From: the human T2T-CHM13v2.0 reference genome, Homo sapiens
Strand: one strand, 5' to 3'
Assembly (NCBI RefSeq): GCF_009914755.1
Contig: NC_060925.1
Length of the DNA: 64,000 nucleotides
Both the position numbers and the translations under genes were made by a program. The notes beneath the pieces were generated by a model, which saw only the letters and a list, made by a program, of their open reading frames with translations, made no database searches and was not told where the DNA came from. Positions 38,532-53,570 of the stretch are shown here, one piece after another. How positions within the stretch are numbered: the first letter of the stretch is position 1; every line of letters starts with the position of its first letter.

Positions 38532-38726
38532 AATCTCTACCCTTTGCCGAGGAGCTGAAGTAAACCAGCACATGTTTTCACCCACATCTGCTCCAGCCCT
38601 CTTCCTCACTAAAGTCCCATTTAGTGCTGATTGTGCTTTGGCTACTTCTCCTCTTGCCATTTTCCTGAACCCACGAGCCCACAGCAGTCCTGGCACTCCT
38701 TGTTCCAGCCGCCCACTGCCGTGGAG
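38532..38726 (+). CDS. MAST2: MAST2 alternative coding exon (195 nt, phase 2-2), ISTLCRGAEVNQHMFSPTSAPALF...SSPGTPCSSRPLPW(S)
   Basis: Pyrimidine-rich tract and AG at 38530-38531; open frame (ORF 38515-38730); donor AG|GTAAGG at 38727; length divisible by 3; C-terminal SSPGTPC..LPWS resembles recalled MAST3 SSPCSPC..LHPWS. Confidence 0.82.
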
Positions 38727-42138: not shown

Positions 42139-42486
<348 letters not shown>

Positions 42487-42515
42487 TATGTCTGTGGTCT
42501 TAACCCCTCAGCTGT

Positions 42516-44569
42516 TGTTACGGGATCCTGGGAGGTGTTGCTTTTCTAGCTAGAAACCTCTGTGGCTGGTGACGCTTTTGCCTGAGCTTTGTTTGCTCAG
42601 GCCTGCTGGGCCCAGTTGGCCCAGCAGGCTGCACTTGCCTCAAGCTACCAGCCTGGATCCCATGCCTCCAAAGAGACTGGAGCGGAATAGTGAAGGGTGT
42701 GTGGCAAGTGAGCATAGGGTCCGGCCACTGCACGCAGTCAGGCATGCCAACTGCTGCAGCAGGGCAGCTAGCTCCAAGGGCTGGCATGGGTGCTAGCTCA
42801 CTGTGAGGCTGCATCGGGACCAGGCGCCACGCAAGCAACTTCCACAGCTGGCACAAGGGAACGCGGTGGTGCCCAGAAACTTGGAGACTTTAGGAGCCAC
42901 CAGGCCCCAAAGCAGGAGTCACAGCTCAGGCTCGGGGAGCTCTCAGGTCTGGTCTCTCCAAAGGGCTGCAGCTCTTCTCTCCTTCTCTCTTCTCTCCTTC
43001 TTGTCGCCCACAATGTGTTGAGCAAGGGGCATGTTTCAGCTCTGTTTGTATTACAGCTCTTTTGGCCCTGCCATTCGGTGGGTCCCGAGTTCTTGTCCTG
43101 CATCCAAAAGGAATGAGGTACACAGACAAATATAGGGTGAGCAAGACAAAGGGGAACTTTATTGAGTGATATAATAGCTTAGAGGGGACCCGCAGTGGGT
43201 AGCTCCTATCTGTAGGCAGGTCCTCCCGTTGAGTGTTCAGCTCTCAGCAGAGAGGAGGTCCTGGAGTGGGTGGCTCCTTTCTGCAGGCAGGTGGTCCCAT
43301 TATCTCCCTATGGTCCCTCCCTCCTCTCCCCAAGCCTGGCTGAGTCCAGGGGCTTTTATGGGCCTCAGAGGGGAGGAGGTGCATGCTGGTTGGTCCATGG
43401 GCGGCCATGGGTGGGCCCAGGGAAAAGCACCACAAGTTGCCCTTGCGGTTTCTGGGACTGGCGACCCATCCCCCAGGCTTCAGGCTTTCCCTGGCTTGGA
43501 GGTGGGTCTTCACTGTGGACCAGCTTCTCTCCACCCAGGAGCCTGTCTGCCTCCTGCTGCTGTTCATGGTGACCAGGCTGTTCATGCTAAGGGGTGCCTG
43601 CAGGCCAGCACTGGGCTGTCCTCAGTGCACCCCTCAGCCTCCTTCCCATGCTTGTCAGTGCCCAAAGCCTGGAGGGGGCCAAAGTGGCAAGGGGGTTGGC
43701 ATGTCAGCACTACCCCGAGCATGTGCACACTCAGCTGGGCTGTGACAGCTCCCGGGCTGGGTCCCAACTTTGCTCCGAGGTTGGAGTAGGCACTGACAGA
43801 GGGGAGAAGCCAGGTAGCGGGAGCGGACGATTCTGAGCCTGCGAGGGGCAGGGGCCTTCCTAGGCCCGAGAGTTCAGAGATGCCTGGGTCTGAAGCTGCA
43901 GCAGGGCGGTGGTGGCTGCACCTGGGGGGCTCCCACCCCACCAACTCGGAAGGGGTGGGGCTCCCACTTTTCCCTGGCTCCCACCGACTCTGTAGAGCAT
44001 GCAGCCCCAGCTCCATCTCCTAGCAGTCTTGGGCAAGGGCTCCAGGTCTGATGCATTGTCCTGGGCCAGGTGCTGGGCTGCTCCAACGCATCGAGTCTGG
44101 TGCTCCTGGTGGTGACCGTGCCAGTTGTTTACATGGTGATCTGCTCCATGGGGCTGGTGAACAATGTGGGCATGCTGTACTTGCTGCTGTGGGGTGCCGC
44201 TTTCACTTCCTACCCTGGGCCCCTGAAGCATGGCCCCAGCTCTGTGTCTCGGGCCAGACCTCTGTGCCCCATGTGCAAGCACGGGACCACCCTGGGCCCA
44301 GCTCTGCCCTAGTGCCCCTCTCTGCCTGTTCCTCTGTGCACTTCTCTCCCACTGGCGGACGGCTCAGCTCAGCCTGGCCCAATTGTGGCAGTTCCCAGGG
44401 GTGGGTTCCCAGGGCAGTGGGCCTGTAGGGGGGCTTCCAAAGGAGGGTTCCAGGGACTGTCCACCTTGGCGTCTGCACCGGAAGACCCGTGTCCTGCATC
44501 TGTACCCCACTGCAGCCGGCGTCATGGCAGTGACTGCTTCATGGCAGTGACGGGCTGCCACTGCCATCA
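42516..44569 (-). mobile_element. Solo ERV1 LTR, MER52 family (about 2.05 kb, MER52D-like)
   Basis: Minus strand TGATGGCAGTGGC...GGATCCCGTAACA; 4-bp TSD CTGT at 42512-42515 and 44570-44573; GC-rich; minus-strand AATAAA near 43158. Confidence 0.88.
44047..44200 (+). pseudogene. Decayed NPBWR1 (GPR7)-like fragment (N-terminus plus TM1) embedded in the MER52 LTR
   Basis: VLGCSNASSLVLLVVTVPVVYMVICSMGLVNNVGMLYLLLW versus recalled NPBWR1 ALSCSNASTLAPLPAPLAVAVPVVYAVICAVGLAGNSAVLYVLLR. Confidence 0.82.
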
Positions 44570-45062
44570 CTGTAATGTTTCTGATGAACCATATGCAATC
44601 GAGAATTTATTTAATAAATTTACAAACTCTGAGCACTTACTAGCTCCCAGGCACTGTTCTTAGCACTTTAAAATGTAAAGGTCATTTGCTTCTCACACCA
44701 GTTCTGTGAGAGAGATTATCATTGTACTTATTTCACACAGGAAGCGAGGGTGCAGAGAGATTAAATAAATTGCTCAGGATAACACAGCTGTATAAGTGGC
44801 AGAACTGGGATAGAAACCTGGGTAGTCTGGCTTCAGAGATCACATTCTTAACAACCACACTGTTCCATGTCTCCATCTGAGATATTTTCATTATGTAATA
44901 TCATACGTTCTGAACCAAAGTAGTTTTTGCAGCCTTGGGTCTTTTCCCAAGGTGATGTATTAATAACATTGTTTAATAAATCCTCCAATCCTGGGGGTGG
45001 GAATTGGTATTCCCACAGTCTGTTGTCACTTCTAGGTCATTACCTTTATTACCTTCTTGTAA

Positions 45063-45428
<366 letters not shown>

Positions 45429-46233: not shown

Positions 46234-48109
46234 GCTATTGAGGCATTTGGCTGCATTGCCCCAGAGTTGGAAAACAGTGTCCCCTTGCATCATAGTGTAG
46301 TGAGGACTAGCCCTGCTTAAGGTCTTAAGCCTCTTTATTGACTGTATCTTAGGGATGGTCTTAGGACCTTACAAATTGTTGCCCGTAATAATTTGAAGGA
46401 CAATGAAGATACAGTCTTGAAATGATACCCACTCTAGCTCTGTAATACATTGCGTTTTATGCCTTGATTGGAAGGAATGAGTCTGTTATAAACAAACGTT
46501 GATGCTAGCTCTTAAGTGTCTCAGATGGGTATGATGAACCTTAAGAGGCATAATAAATTTCATTGTGATTTGGGTTAAATTAAATAACCACTAACCTTTA
46601 CTCCATTTGCATGTCTTCTAAGAAAATGATTCCAGAGTATTGATTGGCACTCAGATGGGGGTGTTGCATTTTTAGAGTAAGAGTGCTAGATTGACTTTGT
46701 GTTGTAAGTGGTGTCCTTGAAGAGAGGAGGCAGTTGTGTCTCTGGCTATTCACTGGCCCAGCTGTAGGCCTGCTGGAGAGAGAAGTTTGATGTTAACAGC
46801 TTAATGGAACACAGAATGACTTAGGTTTTGAATCAGTTTTGAATTGCCATAGACTTTGTCAGCCCTGAAGTAGGAGGGCTTGCAGCAGGAAATCCTTACT
46901 AGAGTGATTTTTATATTGGAAGCATTCTAGCTTTATCTTGCTTCCTACTGCATAGGAATTTCTTCCATACAATGTCTAGCAAAAAGCTATTCAGCCTTTG
47001 CTTGAACATCTTCAGCAACAAGCAGTTCACTCTCAAAGCTTTCATCCAGTGGTACCAATTTAGTTCTCTGGCACCTCCTATGTCACACGTATGAGAGACT
47101 TTTGGTAGACTTGCGTGGCAAATGGACAGGTGTTCCTTTGGGCCTCCTCCAGAACTAGGCAACCTTTGAAACCCCTTTTTGGTAGTGTCAAAATTATTTC
47201 CTGCCAAAGAGAAAGCACTATTTTCATTTTACCAACACCTGCTTTTCTTGTCTTGTCTTTTTTTAAACAACTGCTTTTCAGAGTAATTTCAAAAGAGGAA
47301 CATCTCCCAGAACTTGTTCTTATCCTGGCCCTGCTGCATAGTGGTGGTAGGCAGATTACTTCACTTCTTTCTACCTCAGTTCTCTTCATTATTAAAATGG
47401 GACTCACAATAGTATTTCAAGGATTATAGTAAGAATTAAGTGAGTCAGTACATCTACAATTGTTTAGATATTACCTGGGCTGCTAGACTGGTTATTTTGC
47501 TGCTTCCATTGTTGGGAGACTCAGATGTTGCTAATTCTTAGCACTTCATTTTGCTTCCATTACTTTTTTCTTTGCTTCTATTACTTTTCTCATATTCTTA
47601 TTTTCCCTTGGATATATTGCCTACCATATGTCCATACTGCAGAAGCTCCATTACTGGCTTAGGTGAGGCAGTGGCAGCTGGGTGCCCTCCTGCCCTCTCA
47701 TGCATTCTCACTAATTGTTTCTGCTGAAAACTGGCCTGTTGGGGCTCAGCAGGACATGGACTGAAATGAAAAACACTTTGAATTACATTCTTTCTAAAAG
47801 ACCATTTTTTGGCAATGAGGAAAGTCCATCAAAACGGTTTCAAGGTATTTCATTTCTCCTCTTACAGCAGGGAAAGCGCATCTTGAGAGTATCTTCAGAA
47901 GAAGTGATTCTCTTGTTAGAGTAGGGAAGGTTTTTTGATTTTTTTTTTTTGTTTTTTCATTGAAAAGGTAAAATAATGAAGACTAGTGCTGTGCTTTAAC
48001 TTCAGGAACCCTTATATGCGACAGATAGTTTTTCATAGACCCTGGCTCCAGGTGACCCTGAATGAAGATATAATCCTGTATGGCTAGATGCCAAATGGTT
48101 GCTCTTGCC

Positions 48110-53173: not shown

Positions 53174-53570
53174 CGTGAGCTACTGCACCCAGCAATGTTG
53201 TGTTCTTCTCATTGTGTCCTGTTAGGTGATACAGGCTTTCGTTTTGTCCCATTACTATGAAGTTAACCTTGATCACTTTATTAACGTGGTGTTTTGCTGC
53301 TGTAAAGTTTTGCTGCTGTGAAGTTACTCTTTTTTTCCCTTTGTAATTAATAAGTATTTTATGGGAATGTTCTTAAAATTATGTAAGTACCCCATTCCTC
53401 ATCAAATTTTAACCCTCTGTTTTTAGGATCCATTGATGTTCCTGGTTGCATTATTATACTATGCTGGTCACCAAATGGTATTTTTACAATTTCATAATTC
53501 TTTCTATACCCATCAGTTGGCATTTCACCATAGCAAAAGCTTTCACCTCTCCCTATTCATTTTTCACTTA

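What the first reader, a model, noticed from the sequence alone, without database searches (positions are those of the whole stretch)
44047..44200. Host GPCR gene fragment (NPBWR1/GPR7 N-terminus plus TM1) captured inside a retroviral LTR
Seen: inside the TSD-bounded MER52 solo LTR, the + strand (antisense to the LTR) encodes LGCSNASSLVLLVVTVPVVYMVICSMGLVNNVGMLYLLLW. Recalled knowledge: this aligns to NPBWR1 LSCSNASTLAPLPAPLAVAVPVVYAVICAVGLAGNSAVLYVLLR with a 4-codon gap. Many differences (A>V, A>M, V>M, R>W) are what CpG deamination of a GC-rich gene produces. Inference: an ERV1 ancestor transduced part of a neuropeptide receptor gene into its LTR and spread it to many loci. Such copies could yield antisense RNA to NPBWR1 when the LTR fires; this copy sits in sense within MAST2 pre-mRNA. 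The capture may already be part of the repeat consensus, so novelty is unverified.
Basis: partly seen in the sequence, partly recalled or inferred. Interest (0 to 1): 0.85.

Follow-up and report, generated by a model that had tools for sequence, protein, structure and literature searches.

The report
One-off NPBWR1 gene patch in LTR
An old retroviral solo LTR in a MAST2 intron carries a decayed piece of about 145 bases copied from the neuropeptide receptor gene NPBWR1, but the piece was found at this one locus only, so it looks like a single ancient accident rather than a gene fragment spread by the virus family.

Summary
The quoted peptide is encoded at 44073-44192 (+). Window 44051/44060-44193 is homologous to NPBWR1 codons about 13-65 (N-terminal tail plus TM1): 102 of 134 aligned bases, one 12-nt gap, genome-wide E 1.3e-10, and 0 of 1000 shuffles reach the score. 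NPBWR1 is the only such match in the genome, and the reverse search finds only this window.

The host element is a 2054-bp MER52-group solo LTR (42516-44569, minus sense, 4-bp duplication CTGT).

The piece is not part of the LTR family. Twenty-five fetched LTR loci stop matching the window at 44047-44049, and 30 resume at 44192-44205. In its place the ten distinct copies matching on both sides carry 264-420 bp of ordinary LTR sequence, found at 40 or more places. No other locus shows the patch.

The patch is as diverged from NPBWR1 (23.9%) as the LTR is from its relatives (median 22.8%). It keeps two residues that human and a colobus monkey have since changed.

It has no poly(A) and no duplication of its own. 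One junction shows about 5 nt of overlap and the other has 2 unassigned nt.

My best reading is a single ancient templated patch, either break repair at the locus or template switching in the last replication cycle. It now decays neutrally. Interest is low to moderate.

The parts
42512..42515 (.). Left copy of the 4-bp target-site duplication (CTGT) of the solo LTR
   Evidence: Read directly. The same four bases follow the LTR at 44570-44573. A 4-bp match is weak evidence on its own.
42516..44569 (-). MER52-group (ERV1) solo LTR, 2054 bp, ends TGTTACGGG...CCATCA on the + strand. Its sense strand is the minus strand.
   Evidence: The left end is shared by 21 of 21 other copies, each with a different outside flank. 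Alignment starts cluster at 42512-42518 and the last alignments end at 44569. The LTR aligns to a published MER52D copy and to a published MER52A copy. Its orientation follows from the strand of that MER52A copy and its lncRNA and from the only AATAAA hexamer in the LTR.
42516..44048 (-). LTR part that is collinear with other copies (the R/U5 side and most of U3 in minus sense)
   Evidence: Identity to other copies is 71-77%. Twenty-five of the 27 loci with an alignment reaching this area stop at 44047-44049.
43158..43163 (-). The only canonical poly(A)-signal hexamer of the LTR (AATAAA on the minus strand)
   Evidence: The same six bases are present in 19 of 29 aligned copies, and a one-base variant in 9 more.
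43186..43301 (-). Two copies of a 45-nt stretch whose starts lie 71 nt apart; the stretch is repeated a variable number of times in other copies
   Evidence: family D1, 80% identity. Extra overlapping matches appear in other copies.
44049..44050 (.). Two bases at the left junction that are assigned to neither the LTR nor NPBWR1
44051..44193 (+). NPBWR1-derived patch covering codons about 13-65 (extracellular N-terminal tail and TM1). It is decayed, has one 12-nt deletion, and is antisense to the LTR.
   Evidence: The core, 44060-44193, equals NPBWR1 coding bases 48-193, with 102 of 134 aligned bases identical. The extension back to 44051 comes from the MAFFT alignment. Shuffle control: 0 of 1000 reach the score.
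44189..44203 (.). Right junction. About 5 bases (44189-44193) match both NPBWR1 and the LTR copies, and LTR homology resumes here.
   Evidence: Thirty loci start matching the window at 44192-44205. The junction letters were compared.
44204..44569 (-). LTR part (the 5' end of U3 in minus sense) that is collinear with those copies carrying the ordinary module in place of the patch
   Evidence: for example chr7:137166155-137166512, 76% identity.
44070..44312 (+). Mechanical 80-aa open frame running from the patch into LTR sequence; not a gene
   Evidence: From base composition, a 41-codon frame stays open with probability 0.27 and an 80-codon frame with 0.08. Mismatches fall evenly over codon positions, 11/13/8. 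Pfam gives no match.
44570..44573 (.). Right copy of the 4-bp target-site duplication (CTGT)

Best explanation
A MER52-group retrovirus inserted into what is now a MAST2 intron, and the provirus later collapsed to a solo LTR. In this one copy, about 320 bp of ordinary U3 sequence was replaced in a single event by about 143 bp copied from the coding exon of the host gene NPBWR1 (N-terminal tail plus first transmembrane helix). The patch lies antisense to the LTR.

I think the most likely mechanism is repair of a chromosomal break at this locus. A short stretch templated on NPBWR1 RNA or DNA would have been used as a patch, with loss of LTR sequence at the break. This resembles the class 2 'templated sequence insertions' described in human genomes.

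The event is old: at least as old as the common ancestor of apes and Old World monkeys, and roughly as old as the LTR itself. Since then the patch has decayed neutrally. It does nothing we can detect.

What is shown: the homology, its uniqueness in this genome, the replacement, the junction anatomy, the orientation and the approximate age. What is inferred: break repair rather than a viral step, and the absence of function.
For: Donor identity:
- NPBWR1 is the only match genome-wide, in its own reading frame.
- DNA-level E is 1.3e-10, the search is reciprocal, and 0 of 1000 shuffles reach the score.
- NPBWR2 is much worse.
- All 18 PDB matches at E up to 10 (best 0.064) align to the start of the receptor part of class A peptide or chemokine receptors; the three alignments printed lie in TM1.

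Single copy:
- No alignment of the 66 fetched loci spans either junction.
- Among the 76 fetched loci other than the window's own place, only the three cuts of the NPBWR1 locus match the patch.
- Genome-wide DNA searches from both sides find no further copy.

Replacement:
- Copies matching the window on both sides of the patch carry 264-420 bp there, mostly about 330.
- That stretch is unlike NPBWR1 and is present at 40 or more places.

Junctions:
- There is no poly(A) tract and no duplication around the patch.
- The left junction has 2 unassigned bases and the right has about 5 bases of overlap.
- These features, the size (about 145-155 bp) and a transcribed, still intact donor fit class 2 templated insertions as described in PMC5110952 (passages read: no TSD or poly(A); microdeletion, microhomology or non-templated bases; experimental insertions of 73-414 bp; enrichment for transcribed sequence).

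Orientation:
- The patch is antisense to the LTR. Break repair produces either orientation equally. Simple copy-choice from a co-packaged mRNA should give the sense orientation.

Neutral decay:
- Mismatches by codon position are 11/13/8.
- CpG count falls from 21 to 3.

Age:
- The patch differs from NPBWR1 by 23.9% (transversions 6.7%).
- The LTR differs from other copies by a median 22.8% (transversions 6.9%; 77 alignments).
- The patch has G and S where human and colobus NPBWR1 have S and T. Nine of 15 and 10 of 15 other orthologues have G and S at those positions.
Against: - The patch looks about as old as the LTR. That is exactly what capture during the replication cycle that produced this insertion predicts. 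Under break repair it requires the break to have come early.
- Two template switches by reverse transcriptase would also give a deletion plus an insertion in one step, with microhomology.
- 'Single copy' holds for one human genome, at the sensitivity of these searches (a 70%-identical, 134-base match was detectable). Some regions are closed. No other primate genome could be searched.
- The age estimates rest on 134 bases.
- The mechanism itself cannot be observed.
Confidence: 0.5

Rival explanations
1. Capture by the virus in its last replication cycle. While the genome that gave rise to this integration was being reverse-transcribed, the polymerase switched from the viral template to an NPBWR1-derived nucleic acid and back. 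This replaced part of U3. The variant integrated once and left no other surviving copy.
For: - The patch is as diverged from its donor as the LTR is from its relatives (23.9% against a median 22.8%), so the two events could be simultaneous.
- One step explains deletion and insertion at the same place.
- There is overlap at one junction.
- This part of the LTR differs in structure between groups of copies. Some have a 265-335-bp module, some lack it together with about 110 further bases, and others have a different module of about 340 bp.
Against: - Only one copy exists.
- The patch is antisense to the LTR, which simple copy-choice from a packaged mRNA does not give.
- The other structural differences between copy groups do not share the window's breakpoint. 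The short form keeps about 11 bases beyond it and looks like a deletion between short direct repeats.
Confidence: 0.35
2. One reading: the NPBWR1 piece is part of a MER52 subfamily sequence and was spread to many loci.
For: None beyond the fact that the patch sits inside an LTR.
Against: - Of the 27 fetched LTR loci whose match to the window reaches the left junction, 25 stop at 44047-44049; 30 loci resume at 44192-44205.
- The ordinary module occupies that place at 40 or more sites.
- Genome-wide searches with the patch and with NPBWR1 find no other copy.
Confidence: 0.03
3. An ordinary LINE-1-mediated processed retrocopy of NPBWR1 mRNA that happened to land in the LTR.
For: The donor is a transcribed exon.
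Against: - The piece is internal to the coding sequence (bases about 38-196 of 987) and does not reach the 3' end of the mRNA.
- It has no poly(A) tract and no target-site duplication.
- It is accompanied by loss of about 320 bp of the target.
Confidence: 0.02
4. Chance resemblance, or origin from another class A receptor gene.
For: The TM1 part alone weakly resembles somatostatin, opioid and relaxin-3 receptors (best E 0.064).
Against: - The match includes the non-conserved N-terminal tail.
- It is specific to NPBWR1 at DNA level (E 1.3e-10).
- 0 of 1000 shuffles reach the score.
- NPBWR2 gives no DNA match.
Confidence: 0.01

Closest known systems
Class 2 templated sequence insertions (break-repair patches copied from distant, mostly transcribed sequence; PMC5110952, passages read)
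   Same: - It is a short piece (about 145-155 bp) of a transcribed region on another chromosome.
- The donor is intact.
- There is no poly(A) and no target-site duplication.
- One junction has a few bases of overlap and the other has unassigned bases.
- Target sequence was lost.
   Different: - The described cases are polymorphic or experimental and recent. This one is fixed in the reference and tens of millions of years old.
- The deletion (about 320 bp) is larger than a 'microdeletion'.
- The mechanism is inferred from anatomy only.
Capture of host gene fragments by retroviruses and LTR retrotransposons (known from oncogene transduction; gene-fragment capture in plant LTR retrotransposons appeared in the search listing, papers not read)
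   Same: Host coding sequence lies inside an LTR, and a deletion plus an insertion sit at one place.
   Different: - Captured pieces normally travel with the element and are found in several copies. Here there is one copy.
- The orientation is antisense to the element.
MER52 LTRs of the ERV1 element MER52AI / MER52-int (PMC5753468 table)
   Same: - The LTR aligns along 1.4-1.5 kb to a published MER52A copy and a published MER52D copy.
- Its ends are TG...CA and it has a 4-bp duplication.
- All examined relatives are solo LTRs.
   Different: - Identity to those two labelled copies is only 67-71%, against 74-77% to its best relatives.
- Its upstream 600 bp is shared only with the group of copies that carry the extra module. 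The subfamily (A, B, C or D) is therefore not settled here.
NUMT-like and other filler-DNA insertions at repaired breaks
   Same: Foreign DNA fills a break without transposon hallmarks.
   Different: The donor is a nuclear receptor gene, not organelle DNA.

Membership tests
MER52-group LTR (ERV1) | Sequence homology along the LTR to copies that are labelled MER52 in print | tested here: met
   - The published MER52D amplicon (PMC10653712) was located by its forward primer. The window aligns to it at 42515-43255 (67%) and 43197-43902 (71%).
- The published MER52A solo LTR on chr4 (PMC11007075 Table 1) aligns to window 42535-43964 at 67%.
- The chr4 placement in T2T used an offset from a recalled hg38 position of EPHA5. 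It is supported by finding an LTR exactly at the predicted place, with the start of LINC02835 inside it.
MER52-group LTR (ERV1) | LTR termini TG...CA and a short target-site duplication | tested here: met
   The LTR runs TGTT...ATCA and is flanked by CTGT on both sides. The left terminus is shared by 21 of 21 copies.
MER52-group LTR (ERV1) | Link to the MER52-int internal region or an ERV1 core gene | not tested
   All 21 copies checked have unrelated outside flanks, so they are solo LTRs. Two LTRs 7 kb apart on chrX are only 65-75% alike, so they are not a provirus pair. The class rests on print (PMC5753468).
MER52-group LTR (ERV1) | Subfamily assignment by a repeat library (Dfam / RepeatMasker) | not testable with these tools
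   No repeat library is on hand. The annotation file gives no repeat family names and does not mask this LTR at all.
NPBWR1-derived sequence | Significant nucleotide similarity that is specific to NPBWR1 and reciprocal | tested here: met
   E about 1e-10 both ways, no other locus; 0 of 1000 shuffles.
NPBWR1-derived sequence | Collinear with the gene's own reading frame, and closer to NPBWR1 than to its paralogues | tested here: met
   the match lies in a 344-aa open frame at the chr8 locus; 328-aa ORF; 45.1 bits against 28.9 for NPBWR2.
NPBWR1-derived sequence | Match to the rhodopsin-family 7tm_1 profile | tested here: inconclusive
   The 79-aa frame gives no Pfam match. In NPBWR1 the profile only begins at residue 54, so the patch covers about 10 profile positions.
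Host sequence carried and spread by the LTR family (transduction) | The same piece with the same junctions in several copies | tested here: not met
   This applies to one human genome only.
Host sequence carried and spread by the LTR family (transduction) | Captured piece in the sense of the viral RNA | tested here: not met
   The patch is on the + strand and the LTR sense is minus.
Class 2 templated sequence insertion (break-repair patch) | No target-site duplication and no poly(A) at the insert | tested here: met
   Junction letters.
Class 2 templated sequence insertion (break-repair patch) | Signs of end joining: microhomology, unassigned bases, loss of target sequence | tested here: met
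   About 5 bases overlap on the right, 2 bases are unassigned on the left, and about 320 bp of LTR is missing.
Class 2 templated sequence insertion (break-repair patch) | Donor is a distant, transcribed sequence that remains intact | tested here: met
   The donor is the coding exon of NPBWR1 on chr8, which still has a 328-aa open frame with a full 7tm_1 domain.
Class 2 templated sequence insertion (break-repair patch) | The empty site (LTR without the patch) exists, or existed, at the same locus | not testable with these tools
LINE-1-mediated processed retrocopy | 3' end of the mRNA, a poly(A) tail and a target-site duplication | tested here: not met

The most novel reading that the evidence does not exclude
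A replicating MER52-type gammaretrovirus-like element of early anthropoid primates picked up part of a neuropeptide receptor gene in the U3 region of its LTR. This solo LTR would be the only surviving trace of that variant. That would be a rare fossil of host coding-sequence capture by a primate endogenous retrovirus, in the unusual antisense orientation.
Probability: 0.33. Interest if true: 0.45.

Novelty: new member of a known kind. Interest (0 to 1): 0.3.

Why it matters
It is a clean, datable example of a short piece of a coding gene being pasted into unrelated DNA and then fixed. Both junctions are preserved and the replaced sequence is known from dozens of sister copies.

Such fossils help to calibrate how often templated patches, or one-off captures by retroviruses, enter the primate germ line. 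They also warn against reading gene-like stretches inside repeats as family-wide captures or as regulators.

For MAST2 or NPBWR1 biology nothing follows. The patch shows no sign of constraint. The only feature annotated within 2 kb of it is a reporter-assay silencer element at 46510-46804, outside the LTR.

Tried and rejected
The frame 44047-44200 has stops. The peptide lies in the frame that starts at 44073.
- **Pfam** on the 79-aa frame gave nothing. This is expected, because the 7tm_1 profile starts near the end of the patch.
- **PDB sequence search** gave only weak receptor matches (best E 0.064) and no NPBW receptor entry. It supports a class A receptor TM1 but cannot name the gene.
- **Is the ordinary LTR module itself NPBWR1-like?** No.
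- **Does the window's left breakpoint coincide with the boundary that separates LTR sub-groups?** I first suspected so. The junction letters show that the short form keeps about 11 further bases, so I dropped the idea of a shared hot spot.
- **Search for a provirus to fix the orientation.** Twenty-one of 21 left flanks are unrelated. The two chrX LTRs 7 kb apart are too different to be a pair.
- **Annotated exons or gene ends in LTR copies.** There are none on four chr1 copies. Among 39 copies the only gene end nearby is the C1QA start, which lies just outside a copy.
- **Subfamily naming.** The MER52C element mentioned in PMC13644760 has no coordinates in the passage read. The chr8 copy I hold is 1.8 Mb from CALB1, so it cannot be used. 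The original lncMER52A paper is not in the library; only reviews are.
- **Literature.** No paper holds both MER52 and NPBWR1. The one paper holding NPBWR1, pseudogene and retrotransposon is a mouse neuroanatomy study by its title and abstract start; I did not read it. A search on retroviral capture of cellular gene fragments found nothing.
- **Supplements are closed.** The per-species MER52 counts of PMC10653712 (its supplementary figure 2A) were not seen, so the statement on age from that paper rests on its main-text passages only.
- **Orthologue search.** The human NPBWR1 protein itself was not among the listed hits. The human row is the translation of the chr8 locus.
Full report
**What is in the sequence**

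It is part of a mechanical 80-aa open frame, 44070..44312. They nevertheless bracket almost exactly the stretch that turns out to be foreign to the surrounding repeat.

**The surrounding element**

Window 42516-44569 is a 2054-bp LTR.
- Its left terminus (TGTTACGGG...) is shared by 21 of 21 other genomic copies. Each of those has a different outside flank, so all are solo LTRs.
- The last alignments end at 44569 (...CCATCA).
- The four bases CTGT flank the element on both sides. A 4-bp duplication is weak evidence by itself.
- A genome-wide search gave 2111 first-look candidates. Forty were scored, and identities were 69-77%.

Naming from print:
- A MER52D element that PMC10653712 amplified (primers and GRCh37 place read) was located in T2T by its forward primer. 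It aligns to window 42515-43255 (67%) and 43197-43902 (71%).
- A MER52A solo LTR listed in Table 1 of PMC11007075 (chr4, minus strand, driving lncMER52A on the minus strand) was placed in T2T at chr4:68678121-68679572. It aligns to window 42535-43964 at 67%.
- That placement used a recalled hg38 coordinate of EPHA5. It is backed by finding an LTR exactly at the predicted place, with the annotated start of the minus-strand lncRNA LINC02835 inside it.
- PMC5753468 lists MER52A-D as LTRs of the ERV1 element MER52AI/MER52-int.

So the family is MER52 (ERV1). The subfamily is not settled. The window is closer (74-77%) to a group of copies that share its upstream 600 bp than to either labelled copy.

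Orientation:
- The window aligns plus-to-plus with the chr4 copy, which print places on the minus strand.
- The only AATAAA hexamer of the LTR is on the minus strand at 43158-43163. It is kept in 19 of 29 aligned copies, and a one-base variant is present in 9 more.
- The LTR sense is therefore minus.
- The LTR lies in the MAST2 intron between the exons at 38532-38726 and 53427-53477 (annotation supplied with the finding).

**The NPBWR1 likeness is real**

No remembered letters were used in these tests.
- A six-frame search of the whole genome with the 79-aa frame matched residues 1-41 at chr8:53316391-53316525. This lies inside NPBWR1, in a 344-aa open frame (59% identity, E 0.0018). The hits at E up to 0.1 other than the window itself and this one cover only residues 36-79, which is the LTR-derived tail. 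Seven weak hits (E 0.12-6.9, 29-45% identity) start further upstream.
- At DNA level, window 44060-44193 matches chr8:53316378-53316523 at 70% identity, E 1.3e-10. Nothing else in the genome matches that stretch.
- The reverse search with the first 247 coding bases of NPBWR1 found only itself, this window (E 1.2e-10), and three hits confined to bases 178-247 (on chr16, chr17 and chr18), which I take for paralogous receptor genes; I did not look those loci up.
- The chr8 locus holds a 328-aa frame with a full 7tm_1 domain.
- The aligned core is coding bases 48-193 (codons 16-65): 102 of 134 aligned bases are identical, with one 12-nt gap. A MAFFT alignment suggests the homology runs back to 44051, about codon 13.
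- The local score is 56. One thousand dinucleotide-preserving shuffles give 12.0 +/- 1.6 with a maximum of 21, and the reverse complement gives 11.
- NPBWR2 gives no DNA match better than E 0.25, and 28.9 against 45.1 bits at protein level.
- All 18 solved-structure matches at E up to 10 (best 0.064, none significant alone) are class A peptide or chemokine receptors (somatostatin 3 and 5, relaxin-3 receptor 1, delta opioid, CCR6, CCR3). Each aligns to the start of the receptor part of its chain, and the three alignments printed lie in TM1.
- Pfam finds nothing in the 79-aa frame. That is expected, since the 7tm_1 profile starts at NPBWR1 residue 54.

**The piece is not part of the LTR family**

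- Of the 66 fetched loci (several overlap the same place), 27 have an alignment reaching the left junction. Twenty-five of those stop at 44047-44049.
- Thirty loci resume at 44192-44205.
- No alignment spans either junction.
- Fifteen fetched loci, ten distinct places, match the window on both sides. In nine of them I computed the stretch between the two points as 264-420 bp, mostly about 330.
- That stretch, taken from the chr7 copy, is shared by other copies. It occurs at 40 or more places in the genome (50 candidates, 40 scored). It has no likeness to NPBWR1 or to the window.
- Among the 76 fetched loci other than the window's own place, only the three cuts of the NPBWR1 locus match the patch. 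Blastn also listed eight chance-level hits at E 0.31-0.89, among them one to NPBWR2 and one to the chr16 locus (E 0.31, 62-63% identity); nhmmer listed only the three cuts.

In this one copy, about 320 bp of ordinary LTR has therefore been replaced by 155 bp, nearly all of it from NPBWR1.

**Junctions**

- On the left, the LTR match ends at 44048, two bases are unassigned, and NPBWR1 homology begins at about 44051.
- On the right, about five bases (44189-44193) fit both NPBWR1 and the LTR copies. LTR homology continues from there.
- There is no poly(A) tract and no duplication around the patch.
- This region of the LTR also differs in structure between groups of copies. Those differences do not share the window's breakpoint: the short form keeps about 11 more bases.

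**Decay and age**

- The 32 mismatches are 12 CpG transitions, 11 other transitions and 9 transversions.
- CpG dinucleotides fall from 21 in the gene to 3 in the patch. G+C falls from 72% to 60%.
- At non-CpG positions, 15 of 98 bases differ.
- Mismatches fall evenly on codon positions, 11/13/8. This is a neutral pattern.
- A 41-codon frame of this composition stays open by chance with probability 0.27.
- The patch-to-gene divergence is 23.9% (transversions 6.7%). This equals the divergence between this LTR and its relatives: median 22.8%, transversions 6.9%, over 77 alignments of 300 or more columns, some from overlapping loci.
- Since the gene side is constrained, the patch is about as old as the LTR, within the wide error of 134 bases.
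- In an alignment with 16 orthologues plus the human locus, the patch has G and S where human and a colobus monkey have S and T. Nine of 15 and 10 of 15 other orthologues, both lorisiforms included, have G and S there. All but one orthologue, whose tail lacks the whole stretch, have residues at the four codons missing from the patch.
- So the donor predates two replacements shared by catarrhines, and the gap is a deletion in the patch.
- PMC10653712 states in its main text that MER52 numbers rise in New World and Old World monkeys and then stay level in apes. Its supplementary figure was not visible.

**Mechanism**

Two one-step mechanisms fit, and I cannot separate them with one genome.

(a) *Repair of a break at the locus, using a patch templated on NPBWR1 RNA or DNA.*
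- The anatomy matches class 2 templated sequence insertions as described in PMC5110952: no duplication or poly(A); microhomology, unassigned bases and loss of target sequence; experimental sizes of 73-414 bp; donors enriched in transcribed sequence and left intact.
- Either orientation is expected under this mechanism.

(b) *Two template switches during the reverse transcription that produced this integration.*
- This predicts exactly the equal age that I see.
- It is less comfortable with the antisense orientation, and it left no second copy.

I put (a) at about 0.5 and (b) at about 0.35. The remaining readings are contradicted.

**Function**

I see none.
- No exon overlaps the LTR, and the only functional element annotated near it is a silencer at 46510-46804, outside the LTR.
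- The longest exact run shared with NPBWR1 is 13 nt.
- Within MAST2 pre-mRNA the patch has the sense of NPBWR1, not the antisense.

**Novelty and limits**

I found no paper linking MER52 and NPBWR1. The object is a new, well-preserved example of a known kind of event, not a new kind of system.

Limits:
- Only one human genome was searched, and some of its regions are closed.
- The searches have heuristic sensitivity.
- No other primate genomes, no repeat library and no expression data were available.

Noticed in passing
window 43186-43301: The LTR holds two copies of a 45-nt stretch whose starts lie 71 nt apart. Other copies repeat the stretch a different number of times: the published MER52D copy on chr10 matches window 43194-43255 at three further places in tandem.
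   Followed up: partly
L074 (T2T chr10:55757837-55760537): The two primers published for a MER52D element lie 2439 bp apart in T2T-CHM13. The GRCh37 interval given in the paper is 2215 bp. The 224-bp difference may lie in the tandem units of the LTR.
   Followed up: no
window 42493-45062: The annotation file's masked-repeat rows skip this whole 2-kb LTR. The masked stretches 42176-42492 and 45063-45362 stop on either side of it. I read those two stretches as Alu elements from their letters only.
   Followed up: no
window 42176-42492: A masked repeat, Alu-like by its letters, ends 19 bases before the LTR's target-site duplication. Two insertions therefore sit almost side by side.
   Followed up: no
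L080 (T2T chr4:68677900-68679900): The annotated start of the lncRNA LINC02835 (minus strand, chr4:68679308) lies inside the MER52A solo LTR that print gives as the promoter of lncMER52A. The two names probably refer to the same transcript. The start maps to about window position 43700 of the LTR.
   Followed up: partly
T2T chr1:22459522-22460531 (seen, not fetched): The annotated 5' end of C1QA lies about 270 bases beyond the upstream end of a MER52-group LTR copy and points away from it.
   Followed up: no
L020 and L021 (T2T chrX:80303449-80313599): Two MER52-group LTRs lie 7 kb apart in the same orientation but are only 65-75% alike. They are independent insertions or an old duplication, not the two ends of one provirus.
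   Followed up: partly
loci L043, L059, L068, L069, L070 compared with window 44049-44320: MER52-group copies fall into at least three structural forms just upstream of window position 44048. One has a module of about 265-335 bp. One lacks that module plus about 110 further bases, apparently a deletion between short direct repeats. One has a different module of about 340 bp.
   Followed up: partly
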